Shown here: in pieces, positions 7,917-32,000 of the stretch
Position numbering within the stretch: position 1 is the first letter of the stretch
Layout: every line of letters starts with the position of its first letter
Origin: Candidatus Saccharimonadota bacterium
Lineage (GTDB): Bacteria > Patescibacteriota > Gracilibacteria > BD1-5 > UBA2023
Length of the DNA stretch: 32,000 nt
Assembly (NCBI GenBank): GCA_042852035.1
Contig: BAAFHK010000003.1
Location: 210,001 to 242,000 of the forward strand
Direction of reading: 5' to 3'
Position numbers and translations under genes: made by a program
Notes under the pieces: generated by a model
What the model was told of the DNA's origin: nothing
What the model saw: the letters and a program-made list of their open reading frames with translations, nothing else
Database searches by the model: none

Positions 7917-7925
7917 AAATAAAGC

Positions 7926-8375
7926 TTACTCGAAAATATCCCCTCGTCAATCATATTCGATCTCACGTATTCCATCGAGAAGACGGAAAAATCATTTTTC
8001 AATGTGAGGAAGGATGGGGTGAGGGAGGGAATCAAGAGTAAACCATCCATCTTCAGGATGTATATTTTTCTCGAGATTTTCCGGACTTCCTATCCAACTA
8101 TTGCACAGATAGAGTACAAAATTTCGTTCTCCATCAATGTAGCGAGCGTGGATAATTATAGAGCCTTGTATATCGATATCATCGATATGAACTCCAGTTT
8201 CCTCAAGGAGTTCTCTTTGGGCAGTTTGAAAAAGGCTTTCACCTTCTTCTTTTTTTCCTCAAGGAAAGCCCCAATAGAGTGGCCAATGTTTTGATCGCTC
8301 AGATCGTCTCAGAAAATAGTAATGAGAACCATGTTTGAGAACTACTCAGGCCGATGTGGGAAGATGCTTATTCAT
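7926..8375 (-). CDS. NUDIX hydrolase (149 aa)
   Basis: Nudix box WGFP-G(TGA 8259-8261)-GKKEEGESLFQTAQRELLEETGV. Stop lies 10 nt upstream of the rnr start. Confidence 0.85.
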
Positions 8376-16626: not shown

Positions 16627-16704
16627 GGCACCATGGCAGAGTGGTCAATTGCAAGGGCCTGCAAAGCTCTAAAGTCATCGGTTCAAATCCGATTGGTGCC
16701 TCCA
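16627..16704 (+). tRNA. tRNA-Cys (anticodon GCA), U73 discriminator, CCA encoded
   Basis: Acceptor GGCACCA/TGGTGCC, anticodon arm AGGGC-CTGCAAA-GCTCT, T arm ATCGG-TTCAAAT-CCGAT. My hand fold leaves a 6-nt variable region. Confidence 0.85.
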
Positions 16705-16854
16705 TACCAACATTTTGGTCAATGAAATTTCTATAATTTTCTCCTACCATAGAAACCTATTAGGTAAAGCAAAGTTAAGAAATGGAAAATGACATAAGAA
16801 ATAAGATGAATTGTAAAAACAGAGGAATAAACAAAAAATCTCCAACCTTTTGAT

Positions 16855-16873
16855 AGGGGGGAGATTTTTTTGA
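16855..16873 (+). repeat. Direct repeat copy 1 (attL-like): AGGGGGGAGATTTTTTTGA
   Basis: Identical 19-mer to 26684-26702. Also forms the descending arm of a hairpin with AAAAATCTCC (16834-16843). Confidence 0.7.
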
Positions 16874-16877
16874 GACT

Positions 16878-17624
16878 TTACTTTGCTTTATTTGCTAAAT
16901 CTAATATCCATTTTTTAGTGATTACCATTAAATTCTTTTGTTTATAATTTTTATCAAGATACCAAACTCTCAAAGTTTCAGATGGTAAATTATAAATATC
17001 TAATAGCTCTTGTTTGGTGAGTTTTTGTTTGTTATATGTTGTGTTAGGTTTCTCACAAGCAATTTTTTTTATTTCAGTCAAATCTTTATTGAGATCATCT
17101 ATATAACTCTTATTTGCTTTTAGTTTTTTATATCATAAAGCATAGTTCTTATAATCATTTAAGAGCAGTCAGGTTATTTTATTACATCTTGTATCATAAA
17201 GTATTTGAATGTTATTACTTTGATTATTTTGTATATGATTTCATAGTTTTCTTAATAATCCTTCCCTCTTCTTCATTTTAATAATTCACTCAATGGCAAT
17301 AGTATATGAGTAATTTGAATAAGTTGTTATATTATCAATGGTATCTGCTTTAATCCACATTCAAGCCTCATATAATCCAGCAGCACAAATTAAAGGTGCT
17401 ACTCATACTTTGGTAGCCTCTTTTAATGTCATTGTTGCTAACTCCAAAACTCATTCTTTAACAATTTCAGCATCATCATTACTATATAATGCTTCTGCTA
17501 ATCATAAATAAGGAACACAATCCTTTGCAACATCATTTGTGTATTCTGTTGCAGTTTTTGCATAGAGATTATTTGAAGCAACTAAAATGATAAAAGAAAT
17601 TACTATTAGAAATATTTTTTTCAT
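16878..17624 (-). CDS. Secreted hypothetical protein (248 aa)
   Basis: ATG 17622-17624, signal peptide MKKIFLIVISFIILVASNNLYA. Reads through several TGA into track ORF 16878..17081; length is a multiple of 3. Confidence 0.55.
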
Positions 17625-17649
17625 AATAAAGAGATTAAAAAAATAAGAC

Positions 17650-17952
17650 CTAACTTTTATAAAATTTATAAAGTTGGTAAGGAATAAGAAGAGAGCCTAT
17701 AAGCATAGATAAACATAATTTTAAGAAGTTCCAAAATAACCAGAACCACCAAGTTCCAACAAGACCTATTGTTTGAGGCTTGTGTTGATTAATAAAACTC
17801 CATCAGAGAGGAATTCAAGTAAATCAATAAACAGCAAGAATAGTTTCAGAAGAAGGGTTTCCTTGTTGTAATGAGGACATTAATCAAATTATTCAAAAGA
17901 CTAGTCATAACCATAGAGGTTTGAGTAAGTCCCAATTTCTTTTTTTATTCAT
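17650..17952 (-). CDS. Small membrane protein (100 aa)
   Basis: ATG 17950-17952 to TAG 17650-17652, six in-frame TGA. Trp-rich hydrophobic segments (GLVGTWWFWLFWNF). Confidence 0.45.
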
Positions 17953-18372
17953 AAAATATAAAAAGGTTAATGTTAAATGGATAACATCAACCTTTAAAAG
18001 AAATCAGCACTAAAAAAGGAGGATATATCCTAGTGAGTGCTGATTTCACATTTACATCTTCTAATAGTAGAGGAGGTTGGATATACCCTCCTTGTTTACT
18101 ACTATTAAAAAGACATCAAATTAGAAATTTGAGCAAGAAAAAAAGATGTTTTTGTGAAATCAGCCTGTGTATTCTATTTAAAGTTTCTTGTATTGCAAGA
18201 GCATACAGGGATTAATATATCAAAAATACCAAACAAAATAGAAAAAGAAATATAACTGCAAAATATAAAACTCTTCAAATAAAAGACAATGTAGTATTTC
18301 CAATCTCCACATTGCTTTTATTTTTTATAAGAGTTTTTGAGATAGTTTTGCATATTTCTTAACTTTCTATTT

Positions 18373-18684
18373 ATGCTTACTTCTATTTTTTGAAATACTA
18401 TTACCTTCTCTTTTAATACCCCTGTATCTGAAACAGGATTTTTATCAGAGAACTTTGATCTCACTAAAAAATCTGCTTATGCTACAATTTGAATACAAGA
18501 TTTGTTAAAATTCAAAAATGATATTCAACTACAATTTATCCTTTCTAAAATATTTTCTGCTATTAATGAAACTGCAAAAATTCAAAAATTAGATTATTTC
18601 CAAAATATCAACATAAATTGAAATGATGTATGGTGCATAGATGATGGAAATACTATTTGTCTTATGTTAAAAGAGGAGTATTAA
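18373..18684 (+). CDS. Hypothetical protein (103 aa) upstream of mod
   Basis: First ATG after in-frame TAG 18343-18345; three TGA; TAA 18682-18684. Followed by the hairpin AGAGGAG...CTCCTCT and a T-run. Confidence 0.5.
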
Positions 18685-18750
18685 GCTCCTCTTTTTGCTT
18701 TTTTTCAATTTTTCATATAATCTAGGCAATTTTACTAATAAGTTAAGAAA

Positions 18751-20742
18751 ATGGCTCTAAATCAACAAGAAAAAGAATTTCTATTGCAACTTATTAATGA
18801 ATGAAAAGATATACCAGAAGATTTCAAATATAAACTTTTTCCTACTCTACAAAAGGAGTATGAGTTAAGTTATGCAGGTAAGATGAGAAAAGAAGATCTT
18901 TTTGCTAATGAAGATGGTGTTTTTCCTGTTCCACTTCAAGTAGAAAAAACTTTTAATTGAAATGAATATAAATGATTTGAAGATGGATGGAAAAATATGA
19001 TCGTGTTTTGAGATAATTTACAATTCTTAAAAACAATTTATGAGAATAAAGATGATACCATTAAAGATAAGATTAAAGGAAAAGTGCAATTAATATATAT
19101 TGACCCACCATTTGCAACTACTGATGAATTCCAAAATAAAGAATGAGCTAAGGCTTATAATGATAAAAAAATAGGGTCTGAATTTATTGAATTTCTTAGA
19201 AGAAGACTACTGATTGCAAGAGAAATACTTAGTGATAAGGGGGTAATATATATTCATCTGGATTGGAAAATGTCTCAATATATCAAAATAGTTTTAGATG
19301 AAATATTTTGAAAAAATAATTTTAGAAATGAAATTGCTTGGTGTTATAGTTGACCTTGAAAAAGCAGTAAATCTTTTATAAGAAAACATGATACAATTTT
19401 ATTTTATGCAAAAAATTGGAAAGAAAGCACTTTTAATATACAAAGAATAGAGCATAAATCATGAATTCATAATAGAGGAGCATATCTATGAAAGGAAAAT
19501 GAAGATGCATGAGAACTTGTTGAAAAACTTGAAGAAGAATGAAAGAGATTAGAAGATTGGTGGACTGATATATATACTGCAGACAGAAAAAGAAATGAAC
19601 TAATCTGATACCCTACACAGAAACCAGAAGCACTATTAGAGAGAATAATTATGGCAAGTTCTAATGAGTGAGACATAGTTATGGATTTTTTTGGAGGCTC
19701 ATGAACTACAATGGCTGTTGCAGAGAAATTATGAAGAAAATGGATTAGTTGTGATTTATGAAAACTAGCCTATTTTACAGAACAAAAAAGAATACTTACT
19801 ATTCAAGATAGTAAATCCCTATTAGATGAAAAGAAAAACTATTGAAAAAAAGCAAGGAGTTTTATGACCTGCACTCTATGAATGTATAACTTGAAGGATA
19901 CTCTTGATTTAGAATGGAGTAAGTATAAAGAATTTGTAGGAACACTTTTTGATATAGATATTAAAACTACTACTATTTGATGAGTTGAATTTGATGGGAA
20001 AAAGTGATCTGCTCCTGTAAAAATGTGGGACTATAATAAGCATAAGGATGCAAATGTTGATGAAACATATATTAATACACTTCATCAGTCTATTAAGGCA
20101 AAAACAAGTAGAGTTTATATTGTTGCCCCTGCAAATAATATAGGTTTTATTAGTGATTATTTTGAAATAGATGGAACAAGATACTATTTCTTAAAAATAC
20201 CTTATCAGGTTATAAAAGAACTTCATAAAAAATCATTTCATAAAATTAGACAACCACAAAGTAAGAAGAATGTAAATGATCTTGAAGAAGCAATAGGCTT
20301 TCACTTTATCAAGAAACCAGAAGTAAAATCAAAAATAGTTGTTTCTAATGATGAAATATGTGTAGAAATTTCAGAGTTTAGAAGTCAGTATTATAAAGAT
20401 GAAGAATGAAAAATATTAGAAAATTTTGAAACTCTATCTGCTGTTTTTATAGATGCTAATTTTAATGGAGATCAGTTTATAATGACAGATGTAAAATTTG
20501 CTGATGATTTATTGTCAAAGAAGAAAAAAGGTAAGAAGGTAGATGAAGATGAAGAGATTGATGCAGAATTAGATGAAGATGAAGAAGGGGTAAGTAATGA
20601 AGAGATTAGAGCAGAATTAAAAGAAACAGCAAATAAAGGATTAAAAATAATACTTCCAAGAAAAAAAGTAGGAGATAAAGTAATGCTTATCTATACAGAT
20701 ATTTATGGGAATGATTTTACAGAAATACTAACAGTCAATTAA
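18751..20742 (+). CDS. mod: Type III restriction-modification methyltransferase (Mod), beta-class N6A/N4C MTase
   Basis: Motif IV LIYIDPPF precedes motif I DFFGGS-G(TGA 19702-19704)-TTMAVAEKLGRKWISCDL. I count 23 in-frame TGA. In frame with track ORFs 20023..20409 and 20482..20742. Acidic C-terminal insert. Confidence 0.85.
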
Positions 20743-20743
20743 T

Positions 20744-23344
20744 ATGCAAGATATACATATTTTTAGAAATCAAGACCTAGTCTTAAAAGTTAATCCTACT
20801 TATGATCCTACAAAATTAAGATTAAAAGAATGGGATAGTTTTTTAGATAAACTTTGTTGAGATAGAGATTATCAGAAAGAAGCAATAAAGCAGGTGATTA
20901 TCTTTATGGTGTGAGGAAAATATAAAAAAATAGAGGATTTAGCAGAGGAGAATTATAAAAATAATCCTGAACTACAAATAAAATATTCATCTCTTGAAGA
21001 TTATTTACATAAATTACAAATTCAGGGAAAGTTATTTGCTAATATTGATCTTGCCACCTGAACTGGAAAATCTTATGTAATGTATGGTATAGCACAAATA
21101 ATGTTGGGATTATGAGTTGTAGACAGAGTATTGCTACTTTGTCCCTCTTTGACTATTGAAGCAGGGTTAAAAGAAAAATTTGAAAGTTTAAGTTGAAACC
21201 AGCAACTAAAAGATGCTATACCTGAAAACTCCATAATAAAAAATCCAAGAATTATTGATGCAAACCAAACCATTAAAAGCGGAGATATATGTATAGAAAA
21301 CATACATGCAGTATATGAAAAAACAGGATCTTCTATACAAGATAGTCTAAAATGAACTGGCAGTAATGTATTAGTTCTTAATGATGAATCACACCATATT
21401 TTTAATAAATCTTCTGATAAAGATGTTAAAAAATGGAAGGAGTTTTTAACTAATGATGATTTTTGATTTCAGTATATAGTTTGATTTACAGGAACAGCAT
21501 ATATTGATAATAACTATTTCAATGATGTTATATATAGATTTTCATTAAGAGAAGCAATAGAAAATAAGTTTGTGAAAAGTATTGAGTATGTAGCAAAAGA
21601 TGATAGTATTTGAAAATGAGAAAAATTTCAAAAGATCCATCAAAACCATATTGATAATATAGATAGATACCCAAAGATTAAACCTCTTACTATTCTGATT
21701 ACAGCAGATATTGAAAAAGCAGAAGAATTAAAAGATGATTTAGTTGAGTTCTTGATGCAAAAAGAGAATAAAAGTAAAGAACAGATAGAAGAAAAGGTTT
21801 TAATTATCACTTCTCATAAAGATCATAAAAGTAATTTACTAAAACTAAAAACAGTTGATAGCAAAGAAAATAAAACTGAATGGATTATATCAGTTTCTAT
21901 GTTAAGTGAAGGTTGGGATGTAAAAAATGTTTTTCAAATTGTTCCTTGGGAAGATAGGGCATTTAATTCAAAACTACTTATATCACAAGTTTTATGAAGA
22001 GGTTTAAGAGTGCCACCAGAATATGAATTACCACAACCAAAAGTGATAGTATTTAATCATGATGCTTGGAGTAGAAATATCATAGAACTTGTAAATGAAG
22101 TGTTGGAGATTGAAAAAAGAGTGGTAAGTGAGGTGCTTGATAGTTGAGACAGAAGTAAATATAATTTTGAAGTATTTAATCTAGATTATTCAAAAGAAGA
22201 AGTGGAAGTTGAATTAGAAACAAAAGAAAGTGTGATGAATTTTAGTAGAATATTTAATGAATGAATTAAATTGGAAGCACAGGTTGAGGAAATAGAAAAA
22301 TGAACTGTATTTGAGAGTTTAGGTTGAACTCAATCCCAGAGAGAAAAAAATTACTTGATTGAATATGCAACAACTTCTGTTGATGATATAGTAGATAAAA
22401 TCTATTCTGAATTTGAAATGAGGGATTGGGAATGAAAAGTGCTACAACTTAATCAAGAACAATATACTCAAAATAATCTACCTCCTAGAACAGTAATTAA
22501 GGAAATTATTATAAAATCAATGCAAAAACTCTGAATTAAGGGGGAAAGATTGATAGAAAAAAATAAAAATCATATCCTTTCAGGATTTTGAACTTTATTA
22601 AGAAAAAAGAATAAAACAGTTATTACAAAACTTAAAGTCAATGATCCTATACTAATAAAAACCATAGAAGTAGATAGAGAAAGTTTAGGAATTTGAAATT
22701 TTAGAAAAGATTGCACTGTATTTCTGACAACAAACTATTTACAGGAAGTAAATGAAGAACAAGGTGCTATTCTTTCTGAATTAAGTGAAGATGAAAGCCT
22801 CCCTAGAAGTGCAATCAAAGAGCAGAATGAGTATTTATTTAAAACACCCCTTAATGTTATCTTAACAAAATGAGAACCTGAAAGAAAATTTATTGAAGGT
22901 TTATGTAAGCAAGATGTTGTTGAAAAAATTAATTGTTGGATTAAATCGAGAGATAGAGGCTTTTATGGTATAGAGTATAGTTTGAGATATTGAGATAAAT
23001 GAAGTAATACAAGGAGATATACAAATAAAAAATTTAACCCTGATTTCTTTATTCAAATACAAAAAGAAGATATAAAATATACTCTTGTTATTGAAACAAA
23101 GATGGATTGAGATGATAGTGAAGAGAACAAAGCAAAATATAAATATGCATTAGAACATTTTAATAGATTAAATGAAGAACTAGAACAGAGAGGAATAAAT
23201 GAAAAATACATTTTTCATTTTCTTAGCCCCCAATGATATTCAACATTTTTTGAATATTTAAAAGATGGAAGAATATTGGAAGGACAAGAAAAGTATAGGT
23301 GTGCTCTTGAAAATAGCCTAGAAAATAATGAAGAGGAGCTATAA
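20744..23344 (+). CDS. res: Type III restriction enzyme Res subunit (SF2 helicase plus PD-(D/E)xK nuclease)
   Basis: ATG 1 nt after the mod stop (TAATATG). DLAT-G(TGA 21059-21061)-TGKS, LNDESHH, GFTGTA, SVSMLSEGWDVKNV, QVL-G-RGLR. C-terminal NPDFFIQ...LVIETK nuclease motif. 866 aa. Confidence 0.85.
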
Positions 23345-24091
23345 TAAGGAAATTGCATACTTCCCTGTAAAGTTTTCTTTTAGGATTTCTTCATATTTTT
23401 CTTTTTTATAATCCCAACAAGACACAATCAAAATAAGGTTCTTTTCTCTAAACAGAGGAAAGAACTTTTTATTATTCTTTCTAGTATTCATATCTTCATA
23501 TCCTAGTACTTTCTGATGAAACTGTTTGTATGAGTTCATATTTTCTAATTCAAGACAATAGGCTGTATTTCAGATACTTAATAGTAAATCTGGTATCATA
23601 ACAAAATCTAGATATTCATATTTAGTTTCAGGATTTTTTAACTCTGTTTGAAGTATTTTTTGGATTGTTTTTGATCCTGTAAAATATTCTGCTTTCAATA
23701 CAAAATCCTTATTTTTATTTCTAATCTTTCATAGGAAATAAACAAAGAGATCTCATAATAGTAGTTGATGATTATATAGGGTATAACTGGTATTATAAAT
23801 TGATGGTTCATATTTTATTCAGGTCTCATAATAAATCCTGTTTAGGACTATTTCAGTAGTATTTAGCATATAAATACTATACTGGCTTATACTTTTATAT
23901 TCTTGTTTCAGTTCTTTTATAAATCAATGCTTTTTCAGGAGGAGTAGCCTTATATTAAAGGTTTTATGTTGGGTTTCTGGACTAACAATATTTTTTAGAT
24001 TTCTAGAACTACAAAATCATAATTCATTTAAAGTATGAAATATTAACAAGTCCCTAGGTGTTAAAACTATATTTTCTCTGGTTTTATTCAT
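23339..24091 (-). CDS. Replication-relaxation-family-like protein (wHTH plus PD-(D/E)xK-like core), 250 aa
   Basis: Translated codon by codon from ATG 24089-24091. N-terminus LTPRDLLIFHTLNELGFCSSRNL; later HQLLLGD and MIPDLLLSIGNTAYCLELEN. Stop overlaps the res stop by 6 nt. Confidence 0.5.
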
Positions 24092-25538
24092 ACTTTTCTC
24101 AATTAGATTTTAAAAGTTTCTGTATATTTTGATCTCAAATATTTAAAGACTGTGTTAATATGCTTAAAGTTCAGTGGTTAATAGTGTCAAAAACAGAATA
24201 GAACTCTCATCTTTTGAGATTAACAATATCTTTTTCACTTATTGCAAACTTTTGCTCTAATCAAGAATTGGTAATAGGAACAAATAACTCTGCCTGTTCT
24301 GGTGGTAATGCAAAAATAAGTGAATAACTCAAATTATTTAGTAAATCCTGTAATTCTCTACTGATACTCTGGAATATAAACAACATATTTATTTTTTTCT
24401 TCCTGTGTTCATTTAGTATTTTCTCTAAAATATCTAACATATGATTTTTACTACCTTGGAGTTCGAGAAAACTTTGAAATTCATCACAAGTATAATAATG
24501 GCTTCATAAGTTGGGATTATTATGATTTTTACCTGCTCCAATGTGATATAAAATGTTTGTAAGGAAAGATATTACTACTCTTCTTTCTTGGGTATTGAAT
24601 ACTGAAAAATCAAATAGATATACTTCTGTTTGTTTCTTTTCTCAACTCATATAGTGTTCTATGTCCAATGTAAGTTCTTTATAACTTTTTCAATATCCAA
24701 AAGTATCTCCTAATCAAAAACTAAAATCTTTCAATTTTGTTAAACTGGTAATATGAGACTGTTTATCTACTTGAAGATCTTTAAGAAAAGTTTTTAACTC
24801 TTGGTCTACTCCATTTGCAAGTTGGAGTATGTCAGAATGAGTAGAAGAAAATAGTTTTTTTCTATCTTCATCAAGATAAGTAGGAAGTTTCTGGCATCTA
24901 CTGGTATAATCTAACAAATCATATAAATCCCTATAAGATAATAAAACATTGTCAGGATCTCTATGGTATCTTTCTATATTGATAACTATAAAACTTCTTA
25001 TAAGTCCCTCTAATACTTTTGTGTTTGAGGGTCAGAAAGCAGAGTAGTTAAATACTCATTTCAAAGAGGAGATATTATAGTTTACCCATTTATTTAAGTC
25101 TGTAATATCTTCTACAAGAGACAAAGCAAATAGTGGATTAAAGAAAAATGTTTTATCCATATAAAACCCTCTATATTTTTTATTATTTTCAATAGTTTCA
25201 TTGGAAAATCTAAAAATATCTCAATATCTGCTTAATTTTGGATTATCTATTAAGTATTCTCATAAAAGATTTAACAAAGGATTTATAAATGAGTTATGGG
25301 GATCAATACAAACAAAAGTATCTCCATACTTTGTATTATCTGGTTGAGACTGTTGTAAAATTGAAGATTTTATAGTAGAAAATAGGGTAGATACTAAACT
25401 GTATGTTTTGCCACTTCAAGATTTTCAGAATATTCATCAATGACCGGATTTTAAAATATTGTAGTTGAGTGATAAAAGTGCTTTATCTTCTAGTATATGG
25501 GACTTCTGGACTGTCCCTATGGGTATAATGTGAGACAT
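24084..25538 (-). CDS. HerA/FtsK-superfamily (T4CP-like) P-loop ATPase, 484 aa
   Basis: PIGTVQKSHILEDKALLSLNYNILKSGH-G-GIF-G(TGA 25425-25427)-KS-G(TGA 25416-25418)-SGKT Walker A; HYYTCDEFQSF Walker B. No N-terminal TM. Stop overlaps the downstream start (ATGAATAA). Confidence 0.6.
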
Positions 25539-25572
25539 AGTATAGGCTGGTTAAGTGATATGTTATATTGTA

Positions 25573-26475
25573 TTAATAAAAATTAAGATTTTTGATTAAA
25601 TTACATTCAAAAAATCATGAACTAGGTAAAATTATGGCTTTATCCTGAATAGTTCCTGAAATATGGGAAAGTGGTAAAAATAGCCCTTGTGATAATAGTG
25701 CTTCCGGTTGAAGTAGTCTTTTATACTGTGGTATATAATCTAAAAATGTTTTATATTCAGTTATTGAGTAGGAATTATACAGAGATGCATATAGTCCAAG
25801 GTTCTTATACAAAATACTTTTAATATCCCTATATTGCAGGTTATGTGATATATTAAATTGAAATAGAAACATGTTCTGGCTTTCAGTAAAAGAACTTATA
25901 AAACTCTCCTGCTCCTTTTCATTCATATTTTTACTTTTCTGGGTATATAAATAATCCTTTACTAATGATGAATAAGATCCCTTTGAGAATGAAAAGAGTA
26001 TTTTAATAACTTCATTTTCATTAATGAAGGGCAATATTTCCTGTATGAATGAACTTTTTATAGATGAGGAGGTTGTAAAGTCTCAGGCTCATAAAGCACC
26101 AAGTTTCTTAATTTGTAATACAGAGTGGTTATTAAGTCAGATTTTATAAATATGCTTGTATGATTGTCTTAATATGAAATCCCTTTTTATGTCTATTGAA
26201 AAACTGATCTTTCAGTTGTAGAGTTTGATAAAAAACTGCATTATATAATTAATACCTTCAAGACTATTAGAAAATATATATTCATCTATAAAAACTCTAT
26301 TTTTAGCCTGATAGCAATGTGTTTCCATTCAAAACCATAGATGAGGGAGGTAGAAAGCATTTAAATCATTCTTGATGGAATTTATAAGGTTTTCTCAAAA
26401 GTTGGTTCAAGGATTGATTTTTAAATAGAAAAGTTGATGCTCTGGAAAATATGGAATATTTGAAATTTGAAACAT
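25573..26475 (-). CDS. Hypothetical protein (300 aa), first gene of the minus-strand trio
   Basis: ATG 26473-26475. Track ORF 25615..26034 extended both ways through TGA; TAA 25573-25575. No motif recognised. Confidence 0.5.
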
Positions 26476-26560
26476 GGAGATCAAAATTAATAAAACAAAT
26501 AATCATTATATTAATTTTTAGAAACTATGGATTATGTCATTGTATATTCTTCATTACCTA

Positions 26561-26688
26561 CCCCTGTAATTTTTAGACTTTCTTTTATTTAAAAGGAAAA
26601 GAGCCTAATAGGTCATAACTTAAAACTTATGACCTATTAGGCTCTAACCACACCTTATTTATAGTGGAAAGTCTAAAAATTACAGGGG
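26561..26688. repeat. Nested perfect palindrome (22-bp outer arms, 19-bp inner hairpin)
   Basis: Outer arms CCCCTGTAATTTTTAGACTTTC (26561-26582) / GAAAGTCTAAAAATTACAGGGG (26667-26688). Inner arms AGAGCCTAATAGGTCATAA (26600-26618) / TTATGACCTATTAGGCTCT (26627-26645), 8-nt loop. Confidence 0.9.
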
Positions 26689-26702
26689 GGAGATTTTTTT
26701 GA
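26684..26702 (+). repeat. Direct repeat copy 2 (attP-like): AGGGGGGAGATTTTTTTGA
   Basis: Identical to 16855-16873. Flanked by the inverted half-sites GTCTAAAAA (26671-26679) and TTTTTTGAC (26695-26703). Confidence 0.7.
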
Positions 26703-26748
26703 CTAAAGGAAGAAAAAGATATACTTGATATTAATTAATGTAATTATT

Positions 26749-27783
26749 ATGACTAGATTAATAGATGGGGTAAGGGAGGCAGGATTGGAACAAGGAACAG
26801 ATGGAAGAGTAAGCAAAGAAAAAGTAAATGAGATGTTAGAGTTTTTTAGTAAAGCATTTTGAGAAGATGCTATATTATCTGTATGAGGATTTGATAAGAA
26901 ATTAGTTGATGCTGTTAAAGAAAATGACAATATCATTAAAAGATTATTACAATCAGAATTAGAAAGAAATTGTAGATATGAAATGAATATAAGCACTTCT
27001 AATGTTAAAGAAGTTATTGAGTGGATTGATATTATCAATAACAACCAAGAAAAAAATGGTTGAATTATCTGAAAACAATTTAGATTTACTGCTAGTATTA
27101 TTGAGGCATTACTTGCATTTTTAAAACTCTATCAATCTGCAAATATTGTTAATCAAAATGAAAATGGAAGAGAAAAAGAAATAATTCTGGTTTTGATTGT
27201 TAAGACTTTAAGGTATGCAATAGGTTCTGGAAAGAATGGTTTTACAGGAATAAAGTCTGATTTATTTTCAAAGTTTGAAGAAGTATTGCATAGGATTTTT
27301 GATGATGCTGATATTGAAACAGATGAGAAAACACAACTTATTTTTCAGTGAAGTGCAGGATCTTATGGAAATGCACCAAAAAATAATGTATGGATAGAAG
27401 ATTTTATTAGATCTGTTTCAGGAGATGGCTGAAATGTATTAGTTCATTTTTTAAAAAAATCACAACTCAATAAAACAGAGTTATTATTATATACTGATAA
27501 AAATATTGTAGAAGTTATCATTGAATATTGAAATAACTTTATATTTATTCTTACAAATAGTAGAGAATGGAAAAAGGAGGCAGTTTTACTTTATAAAACT
27601 ACTGAAAATATCTTGCAGGATCAAGTTAATAGATGATGAATTGAAAAAATTATTAATCTATTTCTTCAATGAGGTTTACCAGTTGAAAAGAATGATAATC
27701 TAAAAGTTATTAGTAGAAATGATATTTTAGATAGAAAGTTTATTGCAGAAGAAGACTTTGGTAAAATTATTCAAATTTCTTAA
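26749..27783 (+). CDS. Hypothetical protein (344 aa)
   Basis: I checked every codon 26749-27783: no TAA/TAG, 11 TGA. No recognisable motif. Confidence 0.55.
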
Positions 27784-27822
27784 TTTCCTTTTATTAAGGT
27801 GGGTATGGGTATTTTTTAAATT

Positions 27823-29376
27823 ATGGACTTACAAAAAAAGATTACAGACACTCTGGATTTACAAATAAATGCTGATGATATTTTATATTCAAATATTGAT
27901 AAGTTAGGCTTTTATTTTAAGTCATCAGAACTATTCTGATATTTTAAATCAAAAGATCCATTTCCAGATAAAGAAGAAGTTATTACTATCTGAGATACAA
28001 AGTATAATTTTCTAGTTTATCTTTCAGATAAAGACTTGAATGGATATGATAAAAAACTATGACTAAAAATAGAATATAGAGGGGAATATTATGAGGTTAT
28101 AGATATTCTATTTAACATAAAAGAAAGTAGATATTTATGTGTTTTTCATGGAAAGTTGTGGAGGTTTTCAACTCTAAAAGAGTTTGGATTTTCAAATCAA
28201 ATATTAATTGAATTTATATCAAAAAACTTTACAGAGATACAATTAAGAGAAATTCATATTTGTTTAGATGTAGAAGAGAAAGAAGATTATCTAACTAGGA
28301 TTAATGAATATATTAAAAACTATGTTCCAAAGGTATTCAATAAAGATACCTACAATTTTAGTAGTTGAAATTTATGAAGACAAATTGAAATAGGTTTGCC
28401 AGACAGAAAGAATAATAAAGAGTTTTTTTATAAAATTTATAATAAGACTTTACAGGCTAGGAAGATGTGAATTGATAAAATATATGTTGATTATTGTTTA
28501 TCTACTGAAAAGAATGTGTTTAGATATGAAATAGAGTTTAGACAAAATATAGCAAAAACCATTAAATTAGAAGACTTAAAGTTAATCTGACCTATACTAG
28601 AAAATAAGAAACAGATGCATGCAGGGAAGTATATTTTGAATGAATGGATTTGTAGAACTCTTATTTCATATTTTGTAGACAAACAAAAATTTGATTTTGT
28701 GTTTTGACAACTCAATATTGAGAATGTGAAACTTAAAAGGTCTGAAAATAGAGCCACAGGTTCAGTTGGCAAAAGAATAAGTGATTTAAACCTGATAGGA
28801 CAGCTAAAATCTTTAAGAACCCAAGCAAAGAATATAGAAAGCACTACTTGAATACCCTTGAAGAACAACTTTGATAAGTTAGATGAAATTATAGGAGAAA
28901 GTCAGGATTACAGATATTATATCACTATTTATAGAGGAATTTTCAGGACAATAAAAAACCATTATGAAGAAAATGAGGTAAAGGATTTTGATGAACTTTC
29001 TGAATTGATAAAGGGGGCTACTACCTATGCACTCAATTTTCTAAAAACTGATTATAACAACTTCTTTAAGATTATAAGATGATGAATTAATAGGAATGCT
29101 GATAGTGTAATAGAGTTTCTTGCAGATAATGAAAACTCTTTAAGTGAATTGATTTATTTTTATTACTTTTGAAGATTAAGAGAATGAATATTGTTTGATT
29201 TCCTAGATGTTCTAAAAGAATGAAATATGCCATTATTTCAAAAATATTTTGAAGATGATAAGAAGTTAAGAGAGAGTATTGCAAATAAACAAAAATCAAT
29301 AAGTATGCTGAATGATGATAGTAATTTATCCTTTGATGATTACTCAAAGTCAGTTTTTAATATATTTTATAAATAA
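27823..29376 (+). CDS. Rep_trans-like rolling-circle initiator / MOB_T-type relaxase candidate (517 aa)
   Basis: I checked every codon. LREIHICLDV, QIEIGLPDRKNNKEFFYKIYNK and VFRYEIEFRQN resemble the R.D...D, ..YdK and R.E.e.R blocks of the replication initiation factor (Rep_trans) family as I recall them. Confidence 0.5.
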
Positions 29377-29387
29377 TCTCATTTTCT

Positions 29388-31286
29388 ATGGAACAATCAA
29401 AGAAAAAAAGAGTAGGAATATACATTAGAGTTTCTACATTAGACCAAGCAAAAAAAGGAACTTCTCTTGAAGATCAAGAGCAGAGTTTAAAATTATATAT
29501 ACAAGCAAACTCAATAGATGGTTGGGAACTTGCTGAAAATGGAGTTTACAGAGATGATGGAATTAGTGGTTTTAAGGGTATAGCAGATAGACCTGAATTT
29601 GATAGATTAATGAATGATGTGAATGACAAAAGATTAGATATTGTTTTGGTATATAGAATAGATAGACTAGCAAGAAATACAGAATTACTGCTGAATACTG
29701 TTAAGAAATTTAAAGTAAAGTGAGTGCAGTTTGTGAGTATGAGTGATAGAATTGATACAGATACAGCAAGTGGGAAGATGCTACTTGCTATACTAGGTGC
29801 TATGGCTGAAATGGAAAGGAACTTGATTTATGAAAGGACATATGCTTGAAAGATTAGAAAATTAAGTATGGGTTATGCTTCCTGATGATGATTTGATTTA
29901 CCACTTGGTTATAAAAAATGAGAAGATGGGAAGATAATGATTGATGAGCCATATAAAGAGTTAATCCAAGAGATTTTTGATCTTTGTACTGGGGAGAAGC
30001 ACTTTACACCAAAAGAAATTGCTGCTGAATTATCATCAAGGGAAGAAACTACTTGGTGGGATAAAAAAATGGCAAAACTTAAAAAGAAACAAGTTAAAAC
30101 AGGTGTCTGGAATGCAGATACAGTAAGAAAGATACTTCTCAATCCTATTTATAAATGAGTATACTATTTTTGAAAAACAAGAAAAGTGCTTGCAGATAAT
30201 GAAGAAGATGAAATTACTGTAAAAGTTCCAGAAGAAGAATGGCTACCAGTTCCTATGCCTTGTGGTTGAATTATTACAGAGAAACAATGGGAAGATGCTA
30301 AATATCAAATTCAAAAGATTAATAAAATTAATAGAGGAAGATGAAGAAGCCATATCTTTACAGGTCTAATTAAGTGTGGGTTTGACTGAATGAGTTATAT
30401 TTGTTATAGGTCAAAACAGAAGAAAGTTGAATACTTTTATTATAGATGTGGTGGAACAAATGCGTCTAAAAATGAGAATAAAAGAAAAGATACTGATGTA
30501 GGAAATATTGATATGCCTTTGTGTAATAATCTACAAGTTCCTGAATTAGAACTTTATAACTACTGTATTGATATTATTACAAGGTTCATAGAAGAACCAG
30601 AAGCACTATATAAACAAAAAATAGGGAATGATGAGGAGTTTAAGAAACAAAAAAAGATCCTTGAAACAAAAATAGAGGAAGATAAGTTAAAAATTAAAGA
30701 ACTTGAAGTTACTATAACATCATTGTATTATCAGAAATCAAAAGATAAAATAAATGCTGATAACATACAAAATGTGCTTGATACATACACACAAGATAAA
30801 GAAGCAGCATTGAAAAGACTTGAAAATAATGAAAAAGATTTGCTAAATTCAGAAAATCAGTTAAATTCTGGCAAGCAAATGAAACAGTTTGCTGAGACTT
30901 ACAAAGATAAACTTGCAAATCTTACAGAGGAACAAGGAACAGAACTTATTAGGTTGTTAGTTGATAGGATTGAAGTTAAAGGAACGTTAATTACAGTATT
31001 CTTTAAGTTCAAACCACACCCAGAGAGTTTTACACATAGTCAAACTCTAAAAAAAAACTCTAAAAAAATAGAGGGGGGAGATTTTACAACAAGTTCTACA
31101 CCAAACAAGCAGTCTCTCCAACATATATGCAGCCGTAGTTCAGTTGGATTAGAACGCCTCCCTGCGAAGGAGGAGGTCACAGGTTCGAGCCCTGCTGGTT
31201 GCACCATTTCAACTCATAGAAGACTCTTCAGTACCATTTTTTGGCTCTGGGGAGCTTTTTTTAGGTTCGTACTCATCTATACTTAA
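29388..31286 (+). CDS. Large serine recombinase; ORF has no stop before the element end and reads through tRNA-Arg
   Basis: VGIYIRVSTLDQ...YRDDGISG...RPEFDRL...VLVYRIDRLARN catalytic domain; recombinase domain; HIFTGLIKCGFD-G-MSYICY...YFYYRCGG zinc ribbon; coiled coil. In-frame stops 29388-31283 are all TGA; first TAA is at 31284-31286. The functional C-terminus is probably near 31030-31090. Confidence 0.8.
31072..31085 (+). repeat. Direct repeat copy 3 (attR-like): AGGGGGGAGATTTT
   Basis: 14-nt identity with copies 1 and 2. Left flank CTCTAAAAAAA resembles the copy-2 left flank GTCTAAAAA. Lies inside the recombinase ORF tail. Confidence 0.65.
31129..31206 (+). tRNA. tRNA-Arg (anticodon GCG), CCA encoded
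   Basis: Anticodon arm CCTCC-CTGCGAA-GGAGG (perfect), D arm GTTC/GAAC, T-loop TTCGAGC. The acceptor stem has two G-U pairs and the T stem has one A-C mismatch in my fold. Confidence 0.75.
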
Positions 31287-32000
31287 TCAAACCTTGGAAG
31301 GTTGGAACCGATAGTTAATTGCTATTACTGGTCTTAAGTTCTCACGTGTAACCACTATATCTCTCACAAGAATATTGATAATTTGCTTTTTTTGAGAAAA
31401 GGAGAGATTCTCAATTTTTGTCTCGATTGTTTTAGAAAATTCCTCAAGAGAGATTTTCATCTCTTCAGCTTGTACTATCCCATCAAGCTTCTCATCGAGA
31501 TCCTGTATCTGTTTTTCACAAGCTTCTCTATCCTGAGATATTTTTGCAAGGACTTTTTCATATTTCTCTTCGGAGAGCATACCTTTCCTGTAATCTAATT
31601 CAGTTGATAGATCAGCATCTTCGAGCCTTTCAAGTTCTATCTGACGACGTTCACGCTCTTTAGTATATGTGTCGTAATCTCTACTGTCGACAGATTGCTT
31701 ACGGAAGATATCATATAATTCCTGAGGTCTTTTAATAAAAGTCTCAATATGTTCCCATACCAATTCCTCTAGACTCAATCAAGGAATATCAAAGTTTTTG
31801 TAATACTTTCCTCGGATAGTTCGAGCTGGACGACGGTAACTTATTCCACCTTTTGTTCGACTCACTCATACAAATTTCCGACCAGTTTCAAGATCGGTTA
31901 CTTTTCTGGAGAGCAAATATTCTACGTTTCCACCTCATCTGACAGGATCCTCCTCACTCTCTTTGATGAGATTTTTTGCAAGCTCGAAGGTGAGATCGTC
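31149..32000 (-). CDS. Second large serine recombinase, C-terminal part (5' end beyond window)
   Basis: Coiled-coil C-terminal region (track ORF 31287..31778), continuous upstream through TGA to the window edge (..GRKFV-G-VSRTKGGISYRRP..). The track stop at 31287-31289 is TGA; the first TAA is 31149-31151, inside the tRNA on the opposite strand. Confidence 0.65.

What the first reader, a model, noticed from the sequence alone, without database searches (positions are those of the whole stretch)
16855..31085. Two integrative elements in tandem, delimited by three direct repeats with attL / attP / attR-like flanks
AGGGGGGAGATTTT occurs three times in the same orientation: 16855, 26684 and 31072. 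The first two copies are identical over 19 nt. Copy 2 sits between inverted half-sites (GTCTAAAAA ... TTTTTTGAC), as expected of a serine-recombinase attP. Copy 1 keeps only the right-hand half-site type (TTTTTTTGAGAC). Copy 3 keeps only the left-hand type (CTCTAAAAAAA). That matches attL (B-P'), attP (P-P') and attR (P-B'). The pattern predicts a recombinase-less 9.8-kb element X and a 4.4-kb recombinase-bearing element Y sharing one attB in the tRNA-Cys/tRNA-Arg spacer, so X would depend on the recombinase of Y. All genes in both parts use TGA as Gly. I am not aware of such satellite/helper integrative elements being described for code-25 CPR bacteria.
Basis: inference. Interest (0 to 1): 0.85.

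Follow-up and report, generated by a model that had tools for sequence, protein, structure and literature searches.

The report
One tRNA-inserted mobile element, not two
The three repeats are real, but they lie inside a single 14.4-kb mobile element inserted at the end of a tRNA-Cys gene in a TGA=glycine bacterium, and that element's serine integrase gene runs across its own attachment site, so integration cuts off the gene's last 32 codons.

Summary
AGGGGGGAGATTTT occurs three times on the + strand (0.01 expected by chance), and the block is a low-GC island between tRNA-Cys and tRNA-Arg that uses TGA as Gly.

The tandem-element interpretation does not hold. In at least four diverged relatives (nine contigs), the "X" core genes and the "Y" recombinase module sit together as one conserved backbone, and only the defence cargo varies. 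Six independent right junctions end in ...TCTCCA, about 35 nt past copy 3.

A related host (L030) has the same tRNA synteny but no island. It lacks the ~165 nt after tRNA-Cys that the window shares with relative L009, so copy 1 is also internal. L009 has a 9-nt direct repeat exactly at the tRNA-Cys 3' end.

The element is therefore 16705-31120, with crossover inside CTCCA. Joining its two ends keeps the recombinase ORF open and adds a conserved 32-residue tail, so attP lies inside the recombinase gene.

- Copy 1 is the 3' arm of a bidirectional terminator.
- Copy 2 sits between a covarying 128-nt hairpin and a conserved promoter.
- Copy 3 is coding sequence.

A second recombinase gene converges on tRNA-Arg from the right.

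The parts
16627..16704 (+). tRNA-Cys(GCA). Its 3' end (...GGTGCCTCCA) is the B arm of the attachment site. CTCCA at 16700-16704 is the left copy of the short direct repeat (attL core).
   Evidence: ARAGORN. In L009 the tRNA-Cys ends GGTGTCTCCA and the element's right end is AAGTGTCTCCA, a 9-nt repeat. L030 has an identical tRNA-Cys 3' end and no island.
16705..16804 (+). Left end of the element. It holds the detached last 32 codons and stop (TAA 16802-16804) of the recombinase ORF, which are readable only when the ends are joined in a circle. It includes a 51-nt block (16733-16783) that is ~98% identical to L009.
   Evidence: The joined ORF is open in the window (610 aa) and in L009 (621 aa). 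The tail HT(N/G)IL(V/I)(N/K)E(I/V)S(I/L)IFSYHRNLLGKAKLRN differs by 4 synonymous and mostly conservative changes. The other two frames are closed. Block conservation.
16833..16870 (.). Bidirectional terminator-like hairpin, AAAAAATCTCCAACC-TTTTGATA-GGGGGGAGATTTTTT. Its 3' arm is motif copy 1 (16855-16868), and TCTCCAAC (16839-16846) is its 5' arm.
   Evidence: RNA fold energy is -18.4 (+ strand) and -15.2 (- strand). The L009 equivalent gives -20.1 and -12.4 with compensatory differences. The hairpin lies ~30 nt after the tail stop codon and 8 nt beyond the stop of the minus-strand gene at 16878. The simple scanner did not flag it, because of an internal 2x2 mismatch.
16878..17624 (-). p248, a cargo protein with a signal-peptide-like N-terminus. 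Function unknown.
   Evidence: Code-25 ORF with 8 in-frame TGA. No Pfam or PHROG hit.
17650..17952 (-). p100, a small membrane protein. A homologue is present in L010.
18373..18684 (+). p103, a small protein conserved across most of the element family. Function unknown.
   Evidence: 54-85% identical homologues in L009, L010, L011 and L016-L018.
18751..20742 (+). Type III R-M methyltransferase (Mod). Cargo.
   Evidence: Pfam N6_N4_Mtase, 2.7e-50. PADLOC MTase_II and MTase_III models.
20744..23344 (+). Type III restriction enzyme (Res). Cargo.
   Evidence: Pfam ResIII, 1.4e-17. PADLOC REase_III. L009 carries OLD plus MvaI/BcnI R-M at this position instead.
23339..24091 (-). p250, a backbone protein weakly similar to Replication-relaxation proteins.
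   Evidence: Conserved in all family loci. PF13814 Replic_Relax in 2 of 8 homologues, best E 1e-3. phrog_2190 replication initiation, E 0.004.
24084..25538 (-). HerA/FtsK-superfamily ATPase (HHAS10_12070). Backbone protein.
   Evidence: Pfam DUF87. AF2 model pLDDT 86, pTM 0.89. Foldseek matches HerA, TrwB/VirD4 and VirB4 at TM ~0.5. PADLOC mad8 1e-13 and HerA.
25573..26484 (-). p303, a backbone protein of unknown function.
   Evidence: 48-90% identical homologues in all family loci.
26561..26688 (.). Conserved nested hairpin or cruciform in the divergent intergenic region. Outer stem 26561-26581 / 26668-26688, inner hairpin 26600-26645. Candidate origin or structured RNA.
   Evidence: Inverted repeats I1 and I18. 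DNA fold -42.5 kcal/mol, z = -12.9. Inner hairpin has 19 pairs, 7 with compensatory double changes across 7 elements. Outer stem sequences are completely different yet complementary in L014 and L011. No Rfam family.
26684..26702 (+). Motif copy 2. It overlaps the last 5 nt of the outer stem and runs into the -35 box.
   Evidence: GCAGGGGGGAGATTTTTTTGAC is invariant in L001 and L005-L010 while the flanks vary.
26699..26725 (+). Probable promoter of the p344-p517-LSR operon: TTGACT-N15-TATACT.
   Evidence: Both hexamers are invariant and the 15-16-nt spacer varies in the window, L001, L005, L009 and L010 (sequences). The scanner misses it because the window's spacer is 15 nt.
26749..27783 (+). 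p344, first gene of the recombinase operon. Function unknown.
27823..29376 (+). p517, second gene of the recombinase operon. Function unknown.
29388..31120 (+). Large serine recombinase, the conserved part (577 codons). In the integrated state the ORF reads on through tRNA-Arg to 31286.
   Evidence: Pfam Resolvase 2.4e-38, Recombinase 1.3e-14, Zn_ribbon_recom 2.7e-5. The C-terminus is conserved up to ...QSLQ/...KCLH in all relatives and then diverges.
31072..31085 (+). Motif copy 3, inside the recombinase ORF, encoding (I)EGGDF.
   Evidence: Exact in L001 and L010. Degenerate (AGGTAGGAGATTTT) in L002-L004 and L009. No strong local structure, -6.8 kcal/mol.
31116..31120 (+). Right copy of the direct repeat CTCCA (attR core). 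This is the right end of the element.
   Evidence: Six contexts share ...TCTCCA and then diverge. The flanks beyond it are intrinsic terminators in L001, L002 and L003, or the next tRNA in the window.
31129..31206 (+). tRNA-Arg(GCG), host gene, 8 nt beyond the element.
   Evidence: ARAGORN and Rfam. Orthologous tRNA in L030.
31149..32000 (-). C-terminal half of a second large serine recombinase, reading into the 3' end of tRNA-Arg. This is the start of a neighbouring element that runs out of the window.
   Evidence: hhalign against an LSR profile: 98.8% probability, E 5e-17, profile columns 290-530. BLASTP against the island LSR, E 1e-7. L030 homology stops ~10 nt after tRNA-Arg.

Best explanation
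Window 16705-31120 is one 14.4-kb integrative element of a Gracilibacteria-lineage (Candidatus Altimarinota, code 25) genome. Its own large serine recombinase inserted it at the very 3' end of tRNA-Cys, with crossover inside CTCCA.

The element has a conserved backbone made of two divergent operons. The leftward operon is p303, a HerA/FtsK-type DNA-translocase ATPase, and a Replication-relaxation-like p250. The rightward operon is p344, p517 and the recombinase. The two are separated by a conserved 128-nt hairpin. A variable defence cargo (here a Type III R-M system) sits between p250 and the left end.

attP lies inside the 3' end of the recombinase gene. The excised circle encodes a 610-aa protein with a conserved 32-residue tail. 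Integration detaches that tail and replaces it with read-through into host DNA.

The three AGGGGGGAGATTTT copies are internal features, not crossover sites:
- Copy 1 is the 3' arm and T-tract of the bidirectional terminator that closes the recombinase operon in the circular form.
- Copy 2 is the 3' foot of the hairpin, directly upstream of the recombinase-operon promoter.
- Copy 3 is coding sequence near the recombinase C-terminus.

Shown here: the single-element architecture, the boundaries, the ORF continuity across the joined ends, and the structural conservation. Inferred: actual excision, the role of the tail, the transfer or replication functions, and why the three copies share a sequence.
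For: Single element: the X-core and Y genes are adjacent and divergent in L005-L010, with only the cargo varying. More distant relatives L011-L015 keep the X core, the hairpin and an adjacent LSR.

Right end: LSR protein and nucleotide homology continue past copy 3 to ...TCTCCA in six contexts, which then diverge. The flanks beyond that point are terminators or a tRNA, as expected downstream of a tRNA gene.

Left end: L009 has the 9-nt repeat GTGTCTCCA at the tRNA-Cys 3' terminus and at its element's right end. L030 has the same gene and tRNA synteny and an identical tRNA-Cys 3' end, with only a 549-nt unrelated spacer before tRNA-Arg, and lacks window 16717-16871.

ORF across attP: the joined ends keep one frame open in two elements whose LSRs are only 51% identical. 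The tail is conserved, with synonymous and mostly conservative changes.

Other: LSR domains, ATPase fold, hairpin covariation, terminator folds, conserved promoter hexamers. The motif occurs only in this clade of elements, at the equivalent positions.
Against: No empty site of this exact strain and no circular junction was observed. The searchable collections do not hold this host.

In the window the direct repeat is only 5 nt (CTCCA; 7 of 9 positions match the 9-mer that L009 repeats exactly). The reconstructed attP and attB show no dyad symmetry above shuffled controls, which is unusual for serine-integrase sites.

Only two left ends are available (the window and L009). In L030 the tRNA-Cys to tRNA-Arg spacer is 549 nt, whereas this model predicts 8 nt for the window's host, so a deletion or lineage difference has to be assumed.

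A second candidate repeat, TCTCCAAC (16839 and 31115), exists, although 6% of shuffles give a match that long.

The shared function of the three motif copies is unexplained. The transfer and replication roles rest on weak hits and a fold match that does not resolve the subfamily.
Confidence: 0.8

Rival explanations
1. Two elements lie in tandem: a recombinase-less 9.8-kb X and a 4.4-kb Y that carries the recombinase. Both use the 14-mer as crossover core, so that copy 1 is attL, copy 2 is a hybrid P-P' site and copy 3 is attR.
For: There are three same-strand copies far above chance. Copies 1 and 2 share 19 nt. Copy 2's flanks resemble copy 3's left flank and copy 1's right flank. X has no recombinase.
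Against: X and Y are syntenic as one unit in every relative that covers the junction. Element sequence and the LSR ORF continue 35 nt past copy 3 in six contexts. The 150 nt left of copy 1 are element DNA, shared with L009 and absent from L030. Copy 2's right 'half-site' TTGAC is a conserved -35 box. The literature describes very short flanking repeats for serine-recombinase elements (PMC5704250).
Confidence: 0.03
2. Ancient accretion, now fixed. The p344-p517-LSR module was once a separate integrating unit that recombined into an X-type replicon at or near copy 2. Copy 2 would then be a relic hybrid site that no longer recombines.
For: The integration module is the swappable part of the family. 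L011-L015 carry a different short gene plus an LSR that is only ~24% identical, and in L018 an LSR-like gene lies far from the trio. Homology between clades ends about at copy 2. In L009 the LSR and p517 are 51-59% identical to the window's while the X core is 83-88% identical. Copy 2 looks like copy 3's left flank joined to copy 1's right flank.
Against: Copy 2 and its promoter are invariant across the clade, which looks like present function rather than a relic. No Y-only element was found. Modular exchange by ordinary homologous recombination at the conserved hairpin explains the same pattern.
Confidence: 0.12
3. The three motif copies are binding sites for one element-encoded protein that couples recombination to transcription. 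Two direct repeats flank the attP core (49 nt before the junction and 150 nt after it in the circle), and one sits just upstream of the recombinase-operon promoter. This is the logic of P2 Cox and 186 Apl (comparison from my own knowledge). It is compatible with the single-element model.
For: The 14-19-nt identity is maintained in two or three positions in the window, L001, L009 and L010 while the surroundings diverge 15-25%. Copy 2 lies at about -37 to -50 relative to the conserved promoter.
Against: No DNA-binding protein has been identified. Copy 3 is degenerate in the L009/L002 subclade and can be explained by coding for EGGDF/EVGDF. Copy 1 is explained by terminator pairing. Known serine-integrase directionality factors act through protein contacts rather than arm sites (my own knowledge).
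Confidence: 0.2
4. The left junction is at TCTCCAAC (16839-16846) rather than at the tRNA-Cys 3' end, giving an 8-nt direct repeat with 31115-31122 and an element spanning 16847-31122.
For: TCTCCAAC occurs on the + strand only at these two places in the window, and the right copy sits at the homology breakpoint. L009 has a similar pair, TCTCC(C)AATT.
Against: 6% of shuffles give an 8-nt match. Window 16717-16838 is shared with L009 at element-level identity, including a 98% identical block, and is absent from the closer element-free host L030, which has no TCTCCA in its spacer. The LSR ORF continuity with a conserved tail works only with the tRNA-end junction. TCTCC is accounted for as the 5' arm of the terminator.
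Confidence: 0.07

Closest known systems
Integrative (mobilizable or conjugative) elements and genomic islands that use a large serine recombinase, such as the Tn4451/Tn5397-type elements and serine-recombinase IMEs of Firmicutes (reviewed in PMC5704250)
   Same: A single LSR at one end, very short direct repeats at the borders, a plasmid-like core, accessory cargo, and a low-GC island next to a tRNA cluster.
   Different: The host is a code-25 Gracilibacteria-lineage bacterium. No recognisable relaxase or type IV secretion genes are present. The core is an unannotated trio (p303, a HerA-like ATPase, a Replic_Relax-like p250) plus a conserved 128-nt hairpin. attP lies inside the LSR ORF.
CIME-ICE/IME accretion: tandem arrays with three att sites, in which a recombinase-less element is mobilised in cis (Pavlovic 2004 and Bellanger 2011, as summarised in PMC5704250)
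   Different: The repeats here are not att cores, and the two parts are not separable units. Tested and not met.
SSV-type ('type I', suicidal) tyrosine integrases of archaeal viruses and plasmids (PMC7253208)
   Same: The recombination site lies inside the integrase ORF, it is translated as part of the protein, and integration splits the gene next to a tRNA.
   Different: Those enzymes are tyrosine recombinases, reported as restricted to archaea, and are split into two inactive halves. Here a serine recombinase loses only a 32-residue C-terminal tail and keeps all catalytic and DNA-binding domains.
Actinomycete integrative and conjugative elements (AICEs, such as pSAM2), which use an FtsK-like dsDNA translocase together with a Rep protein (my own knowledge)
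   Same: A small integrated element at a tRNA gene with an FtsK/HerA-superfamily ATPase and a replication-type protein instead of a type IV secretion system.
   Different: AICEs mostly use tyrosine integrases. The ATPase here cannot be assigned to the TraB/FtsK branch (HerA, VirD4 and VirB4 match equally well). There is no evidence of transfer.

Membership tests
Large serine recombinase (serine integrase) | N-terminal resolvase catalytic domain with the nucleophilic serine | tested here: met
   PF00239, 2.4e-38, residues 11-162. The YIRVST motif is present, and R14 and S16 are invariant in alignment A4.
Large serine recombinase (serine integrase) | Recombinase domain followed by a zinc-ribbon domain and a coiled-coil | tested here: met
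   PF07508, 1.3e-14. PF13408, 2.7e-5, at 24.9 bits, just under the 25.3-bit cut-off. Residues ~425-530 give only sub-threshold matches to coiled-coil families.
Large serine recombinase (serine integrase) | attP x attB recombination at a central dinucleotide, with imperfect dyad half-sites | tested here: inconclusive
   Short cores are shared (CTCCA in the window, GTGTCTCCA in L009). The dyad symmetry of the reconstructed sites is not above shuffled controls.
CIME / tandem accretion of integrative elements | Three att sites that all contain the crossover core, at the two outer borders and at the internal junction | tested here: not met
   The outer borders map to CTCCA at 16700-16704 and 31116-31120, not to the 14-mer. 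There is no CTCCA core at copy 2.
CIME / tandem accretion of integrative elements | The two units occur independently of each other in other genomes | tested here: not met
   The X core and Y module are always adjacent in L005-L010. L001 continues into the hairpin to the left of copy 2.
Integrative conjugative or mobilizable element | Integrase plus att sites at the element borders | tested here: met
Integrative conjugative or mobilizable element | Relaxase/oriT and a coupling protein, or an FtsK-like translocase | tested here: inconclusive
   The ATPase fold matches HerA, TrwB/VirD4 and VirB4 at TM ~0.5. p250 has weak Replic_Relax hits in 2 of 8 homologues, E 1e-3. No relaxase family was detected.
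Integrative conjugative or mobilizable element | Excision to a circular intermediate | not testable with these tools
   No read data are available. No contig is circular by end overlap. ORF continuity across the joined ends is indirect support.
Prophage or phage satellite | Capsid, portal, terminase or other virion genes, or membership of viral collections | tested here: not met
   PHROGs gave only weak ATPase and rep hits. No relative was found in IMG/VR.
SSV-type suicidal integrase | attP located within the integrase ORF | tested here: met
   the ORF spans the joined ends in two elements.
SSV-type suicidal integrase | Tyrosine recombinase that integration splits into inactive N and C halves | tested here: not met
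   The enzyme is a serine recombinase, and only the last 32 codons are detached.
Type III restriction-modification (cargo) | Adjacent Mod (N6/N4 methyltransferase) and Res (ResIII helicase-nuclease) genes | tested here: met
Intrinsic terminator (copy 1) | G+C-containing hairpin followed by a T-tract | tested here: inconclusive
   The hairpin folds at -18.4 and -15.2 kcal/mol with A- and T-tracts on both sides and compensatory changes in L009. It was not flagged by the rule-based scanner. There is no transcript data.

The most novel reading that the evidence does not exclude
The element belongs to an undescribed family of tRNA-targeting, defence-carrying integrative elements of code-25 Gracilibacteria, in which the serine integrase gene spans attP. 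The conserved 32-residue C-terminal tail is encoded only by the excised circle, and integration swaps it for an arbitrary host-encoded tail. On this reading the split acts as a built-in sensor of the integrated versus excised state that sets recombination directionality or integrase stability, making it a bacterial, serine-recombinase counterpart of the archaeal 'suicidal' SSV-type integrases. The repeated 14-mer at the attP arms and the operon promoter could be part of the same switch.
Probability: 0.3. Interest if true: 0.7.

Novelty: new variant of a known kind. Interest (0 to 1): 0.45.

Why it matters
Mobile elements of candidate-phyla-radiation bacteria with an altered genetic code are almost undescribed. 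This work defines a family, found in several metagenomes and MAGs, with a recognisable backbone, exact borders and interchangeable defence cargo: Type III R-M, OLD plus Type II R-M, or nuclease and HNH/WYL genes.

Mechanistically, a serine integrase whose ORF crosses its own attP gives a directly testable idea about how directionality could be controlled without a separate factor. It may also interest people mining serine integrases as genome-engineering tools, because the integrated (database) copy of such a gene carries the wrong C-terminus.

For the scan itself, the lesson is that a significant triple repeat inside an island need not mark att sites.

Tried and rejected
- **TCTCCAAC as the att core.** This was my intermediate model. 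I rejected it after the L009 alignment, the L030 comparison and the ORF-continuity test.
- **Empty-site pattern.** TCTCCANNNNNNNNGCAGCCGTAGTTCAGTTGG gave 0 hits in genome contigs and in metagenome contigs.
- **attL pattern.** ATAGGGGGGAGATTTTTTT in metagenome contigs gave 9 hits, all unrelated chance matches.
- **Viral contigs.** A search with the ATPase profile found nothing.
- **Source contig.** Fetching it through P0049, and a paralogue through P0063, failed because neither is on record.
- **Rfam.** Only tRNAs were found. The hairpin gave sub-threshold miRNA-precursor hits, which I treat as generic.
- **Unknown proteins.** NCBIfam, Pfam and PDB-sequence profiles for p250, p303, p344 and p517 gave nothing beyond the weak Replic_Relax hits.
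- **L011 far end.** A search for a tRNA-Glu repeat at the far end of the L011 element found no convincing repeat.
- **Copy 2 as RBS or short ORF.** Rejected: it lies 52 nt upstream of the ATG, and the only ORF there is 11 codons.
- **Literature.** Nothing was found on mobile elements of this lineage.

Full report
**Observation.** The 14-mer AGGGGGGAGATTTT occurs exactly three times in the window, all on the + strand, at 16855, 26684 and 31072. Shuffles give 0.01 on average. The interval coincides with a drop in GC from about 0.37 to about 0.27. It lies between tRNA-Cys (16627-16704) and tRNA-Arg(gcg) (31129-31206).

TGA is a sense codon. ORFs of at least 100 aa total 14,686 aa with TGA read through, against 2,768 aa under table 11, and every island ORF has 3-24 in-frame TGAs. 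TGA encodes two glycines of the ATPase P-loop GKSGSGKT and a Gly of the methylase FGGSGTT motif.

**Gene content (code 25).** From left to right the island encodes:
- a secreted-looking p248 and a membrane protein p100 (both on the - strand), and p103;
- a Type III R-M pair (Mod, Res);
- on the - strand, p250, a DUF87/HerA ATPase and p303;
- a 264-nt divergent intergenic region containing copy 2;
- on the + strand, p344, p517 and a large serine recombinase (Resolvase, Recombinase and Zn-ribbon domains).

The source is an NCBI MAG named Candidatus Altimarinota bacterium. The ATPase is HHAS10_12070 and the left-flank membrane protein is HHAS10_12000.

**Are X and Y separate elements? No.** Homologues of the X-borne ATPase (75-82% identical) were traced to contigs L005-L010, from at least three diverged elements. 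In every one the trio p303-ATPase-p250 lies divergently next to p344-p517-LSR homologues. Only the cargo beyond p250 differs: Type III R-M in L005 and L010, and an OLD nuclease plus an MvaI/BcnI-type R-M in L009.

The closest recombinase relative is L001 (93% identical), which sits in a different chromosomal context. It also continues to the left of copy 2 into the same hairpin, up to the contig end. More distant relatives (ATPase 52-58% identical, L011-L015) keep the trio, the hairpin and an adjacent but very different LSR. Gracilibacteria MAGs L016-L018 keep the trio plus p103.

X and Y are therefore the two arms of one backbone. The integration arm is evolutionarily exchangeable: in L009 the X core is 83-88% identical to the window's but the LSR only 51%. 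However, the two arms are never found as free-standing neighbours.

**Right border.** In all relatives the recombinase protein stays conserved for about 13 residues beyond the GGDF encoded by copy 3. Nucleotide homology runs to window 31120. Six independent junctions read ...TCTCCA and then diverge completely. The sequences beyond are strong intrinsic terminators starting 8-40 nt after the junction in L001, L002 and L003. In the window the sequence beyond is the next tRNA. That is what lies downstream of a tRNA gene. Copy 3 is thus about 35 nt inside the element.

**Left border.** I first considered TCTCCAAC (16839 and 31115), but 6% of shuffles give such a match. Aligning L009's left end with the window gave two results. 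First, L009's tRNA-Cys ends GGTGTCTCCA and its element ends AAGTGTCTCCA, a 9-nt repeat exactly at the tRNA terminus. Second, the ~165 nt after tRNA-Cys are shared by the two elements, including a 51-nt block that is 98% identical.

The last homology search found a related host, L030. It has the same order: membrane protein, tRNA-Arg(tcg), tRNA-Leu, tRNA-Cys, tRNA-Arg(gcg). Its tRNA-Cys 3' end is identical to the window's over the last 30 nt, whereas L009's differs at three positions. In L030 tRNA-Cys and tRNA-Arg are separated by only 549 nt of unrelated sequence. There is no island, no TCTCCA and no G-motif. Homology to the window stops at 16716 and resumes at 31127.

The stretch 16717-16871, including copy 1, is therefore element DNA. 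The element spans 16705-31120 and the direct repeat is CTCCA.

**attP inside the recombinase gene.** Joining 31120 to 16705 keeps the recombinase frame open. This gives 610 aa in the window and 621 aa in L009. Both end in a conserved tail, HT(N/G)IL(V/I)(N/K)E(I/V)S(I/L)IFSYHRNLLGKAKLRN. The differences are four synonymous changes and mostly conservative replacements, and the other two frames contain stops. This holds even though the two recombinases are only 51% identical.

Integration therefore detaches the last 32 codons (31 in L009). In the integrated state the ORF runs on into whatever follows: 55 codons through tRNA-Arg in the window, 13 in L001 and 7 in L002. In L011 and L014 the unrelated LSRs likewise read into a tRNA gene, tail to tail. 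The only described analogue I found is the SSV-type tyrosine integrases, reported as restricted to archaea (PMC7253208).

**What the three copies are.**
- **Copy 1** is the 3' arm and T-tract of an A-tract/T-tract hairpin. It folds on both strands (-18.4 and -15.2 kcal/mol) and has compensatory differences in L009. It sits ~30 nt after the tail's stop codon and just past the stop of the convergent p248 gene. That makes it a bidirectional terminator, which in the circle closes the recombinase operon.
- **Copy 2** overlaps the 3' foot of a 128-nt nested hairpin (z = -12.9). The inner stem has 7 of 19 pairs with compensatory double changes. The outer stem has entirely different but complementary sequences in L014 and L011. 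Copy 2 runs directly into TTGAC(T/G)-N15/16-TATACT, whose hexamers are invariant while the spacer varies.
- **Copy 3** encodes (I)EGGDF, is degenerate in the L009/L002 subclade, and has no strong structure.

The motif occurs only in this clade of elements, always at these positions. Why the three places share the sequence is not settled. A common binding protein is possible (about 0.2).

**How the element may propagate.** The ATPase model (pLDDT 86) matches hexameric HerA, TrwB/VirD4 and VirB4 translocases about equally well. It also hits PADLOC mad8 and HerA. p250 gives weak Replication-relaxation and replication-initiator hits. There are no virion genes and no relatives in IMG/VR. A plasmid-like replication or transfer core is the best guess, but it is inferred rather than shown.

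**A neighbouring element.** The gene at 31149-32000 (- strand) is the C-terminal half of a second LSR (hhalign 98.8%, E 5e-17). It reads into the 3' end of tRNA-Arg. L030 lacks it.

**Comparison and verdict.** Its defining features were tested here and not met. The element is a serine-recombinase integrative element of a known general kind. It belongs to an undescribed family in a code-25 lineage and has the unusual trait of an integrase ORF that spans attP.

Limits of this work: no strain-level empty site or circular junction could be retrieved. Only two left ends are known. The att sites lack detectable dyad symmetry.

Noticed in passing
window 31149-32000 (-): C-terminal half of a second large serine recombinase whose ORF reads antisense into the 3' end of tRNA-Arg(gcg). 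tRNA-Arg is thus flanked by two convergent recombinase genes, and a second element probably starts at about 31207 and leaves the window. The GC here is host-like (0.39).
   Followed up: partly
window 26561-26688: A 128-nt nested hairpin or cruciform conserved across the whole element family, with compensatory changes in both stems and no Rfam match. It is a candidate replication or transfer origin, or a structured RNA.
   Followed up: partly
window 16733-16783: A 51-nt block that is ~98% identical between the window and L009, far above the 75-78% of the surrounding DNA. It encodes the most conserved part of the detached recombinase tail, but this level of nucleotide conservation suggests an additional DNA- or RNA-level constraint.
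   Followed up: no
P0063 (HHAS10_04600), 750-kb contig of the same MAG: A 42% identical paralogue of the backbone ATPase in the same genome, implying a second member of this element family elsewhere in the chromosome.
   Followed up: no
L009 versus window (whole element): Mosaicism. The X-core proteins are 83-88% identical, but p517 is 59% and the recombinase 51% identical. Yet both elements sit at tRNA-Cys and keep the same copy 1 and copy 2 motif and the same recombinase tail.
   Followed up: partly
L030 3882-3960 (+): ARAGORN calls a 'tRNA-SeC' with anticodon TCA in the related host. In a TGA=Gly organism this is more likely the UGA-decoding tRNA-Gly(UCA).
   Followed up: no
L030 (reverse complement) 6817-7494 and 7614-8162: The related host has ~670 extra nt between tRNA-Leu and tRNA-Cys. 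It also has a 549-nt spacer with a small ORF between tRNA-Cys and tRNA-Arg. That ORF is homologous to a gene downstream of the L002 element, so this tRNA cluster is a variable hotspot, and L002's element sits in the same neighbourhood.
   Followed up: partly
L011 6157-8060 and L014 111-1883: In distant family members an unrelated LSR (~24% identical) overlaps tRNA-Glu or tRNA-Met tail to tail by about 60 nt, the same geometry as the second recombinase in the window. L011's island also has low GC (0.25 versus 0.38) over ~14 kb and carries SNase-like and HNH/WYL cargo.
   Followed up: partly
window 24084-25538 (-), alignment A1: Database homologues of the ATPase show W where the window has G in the P-loop (consensus GKSWSGKT), because some pipelines translated these genomes with code 4. 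This is a systematic annotation artefact for this lineage.
   Followed up: no
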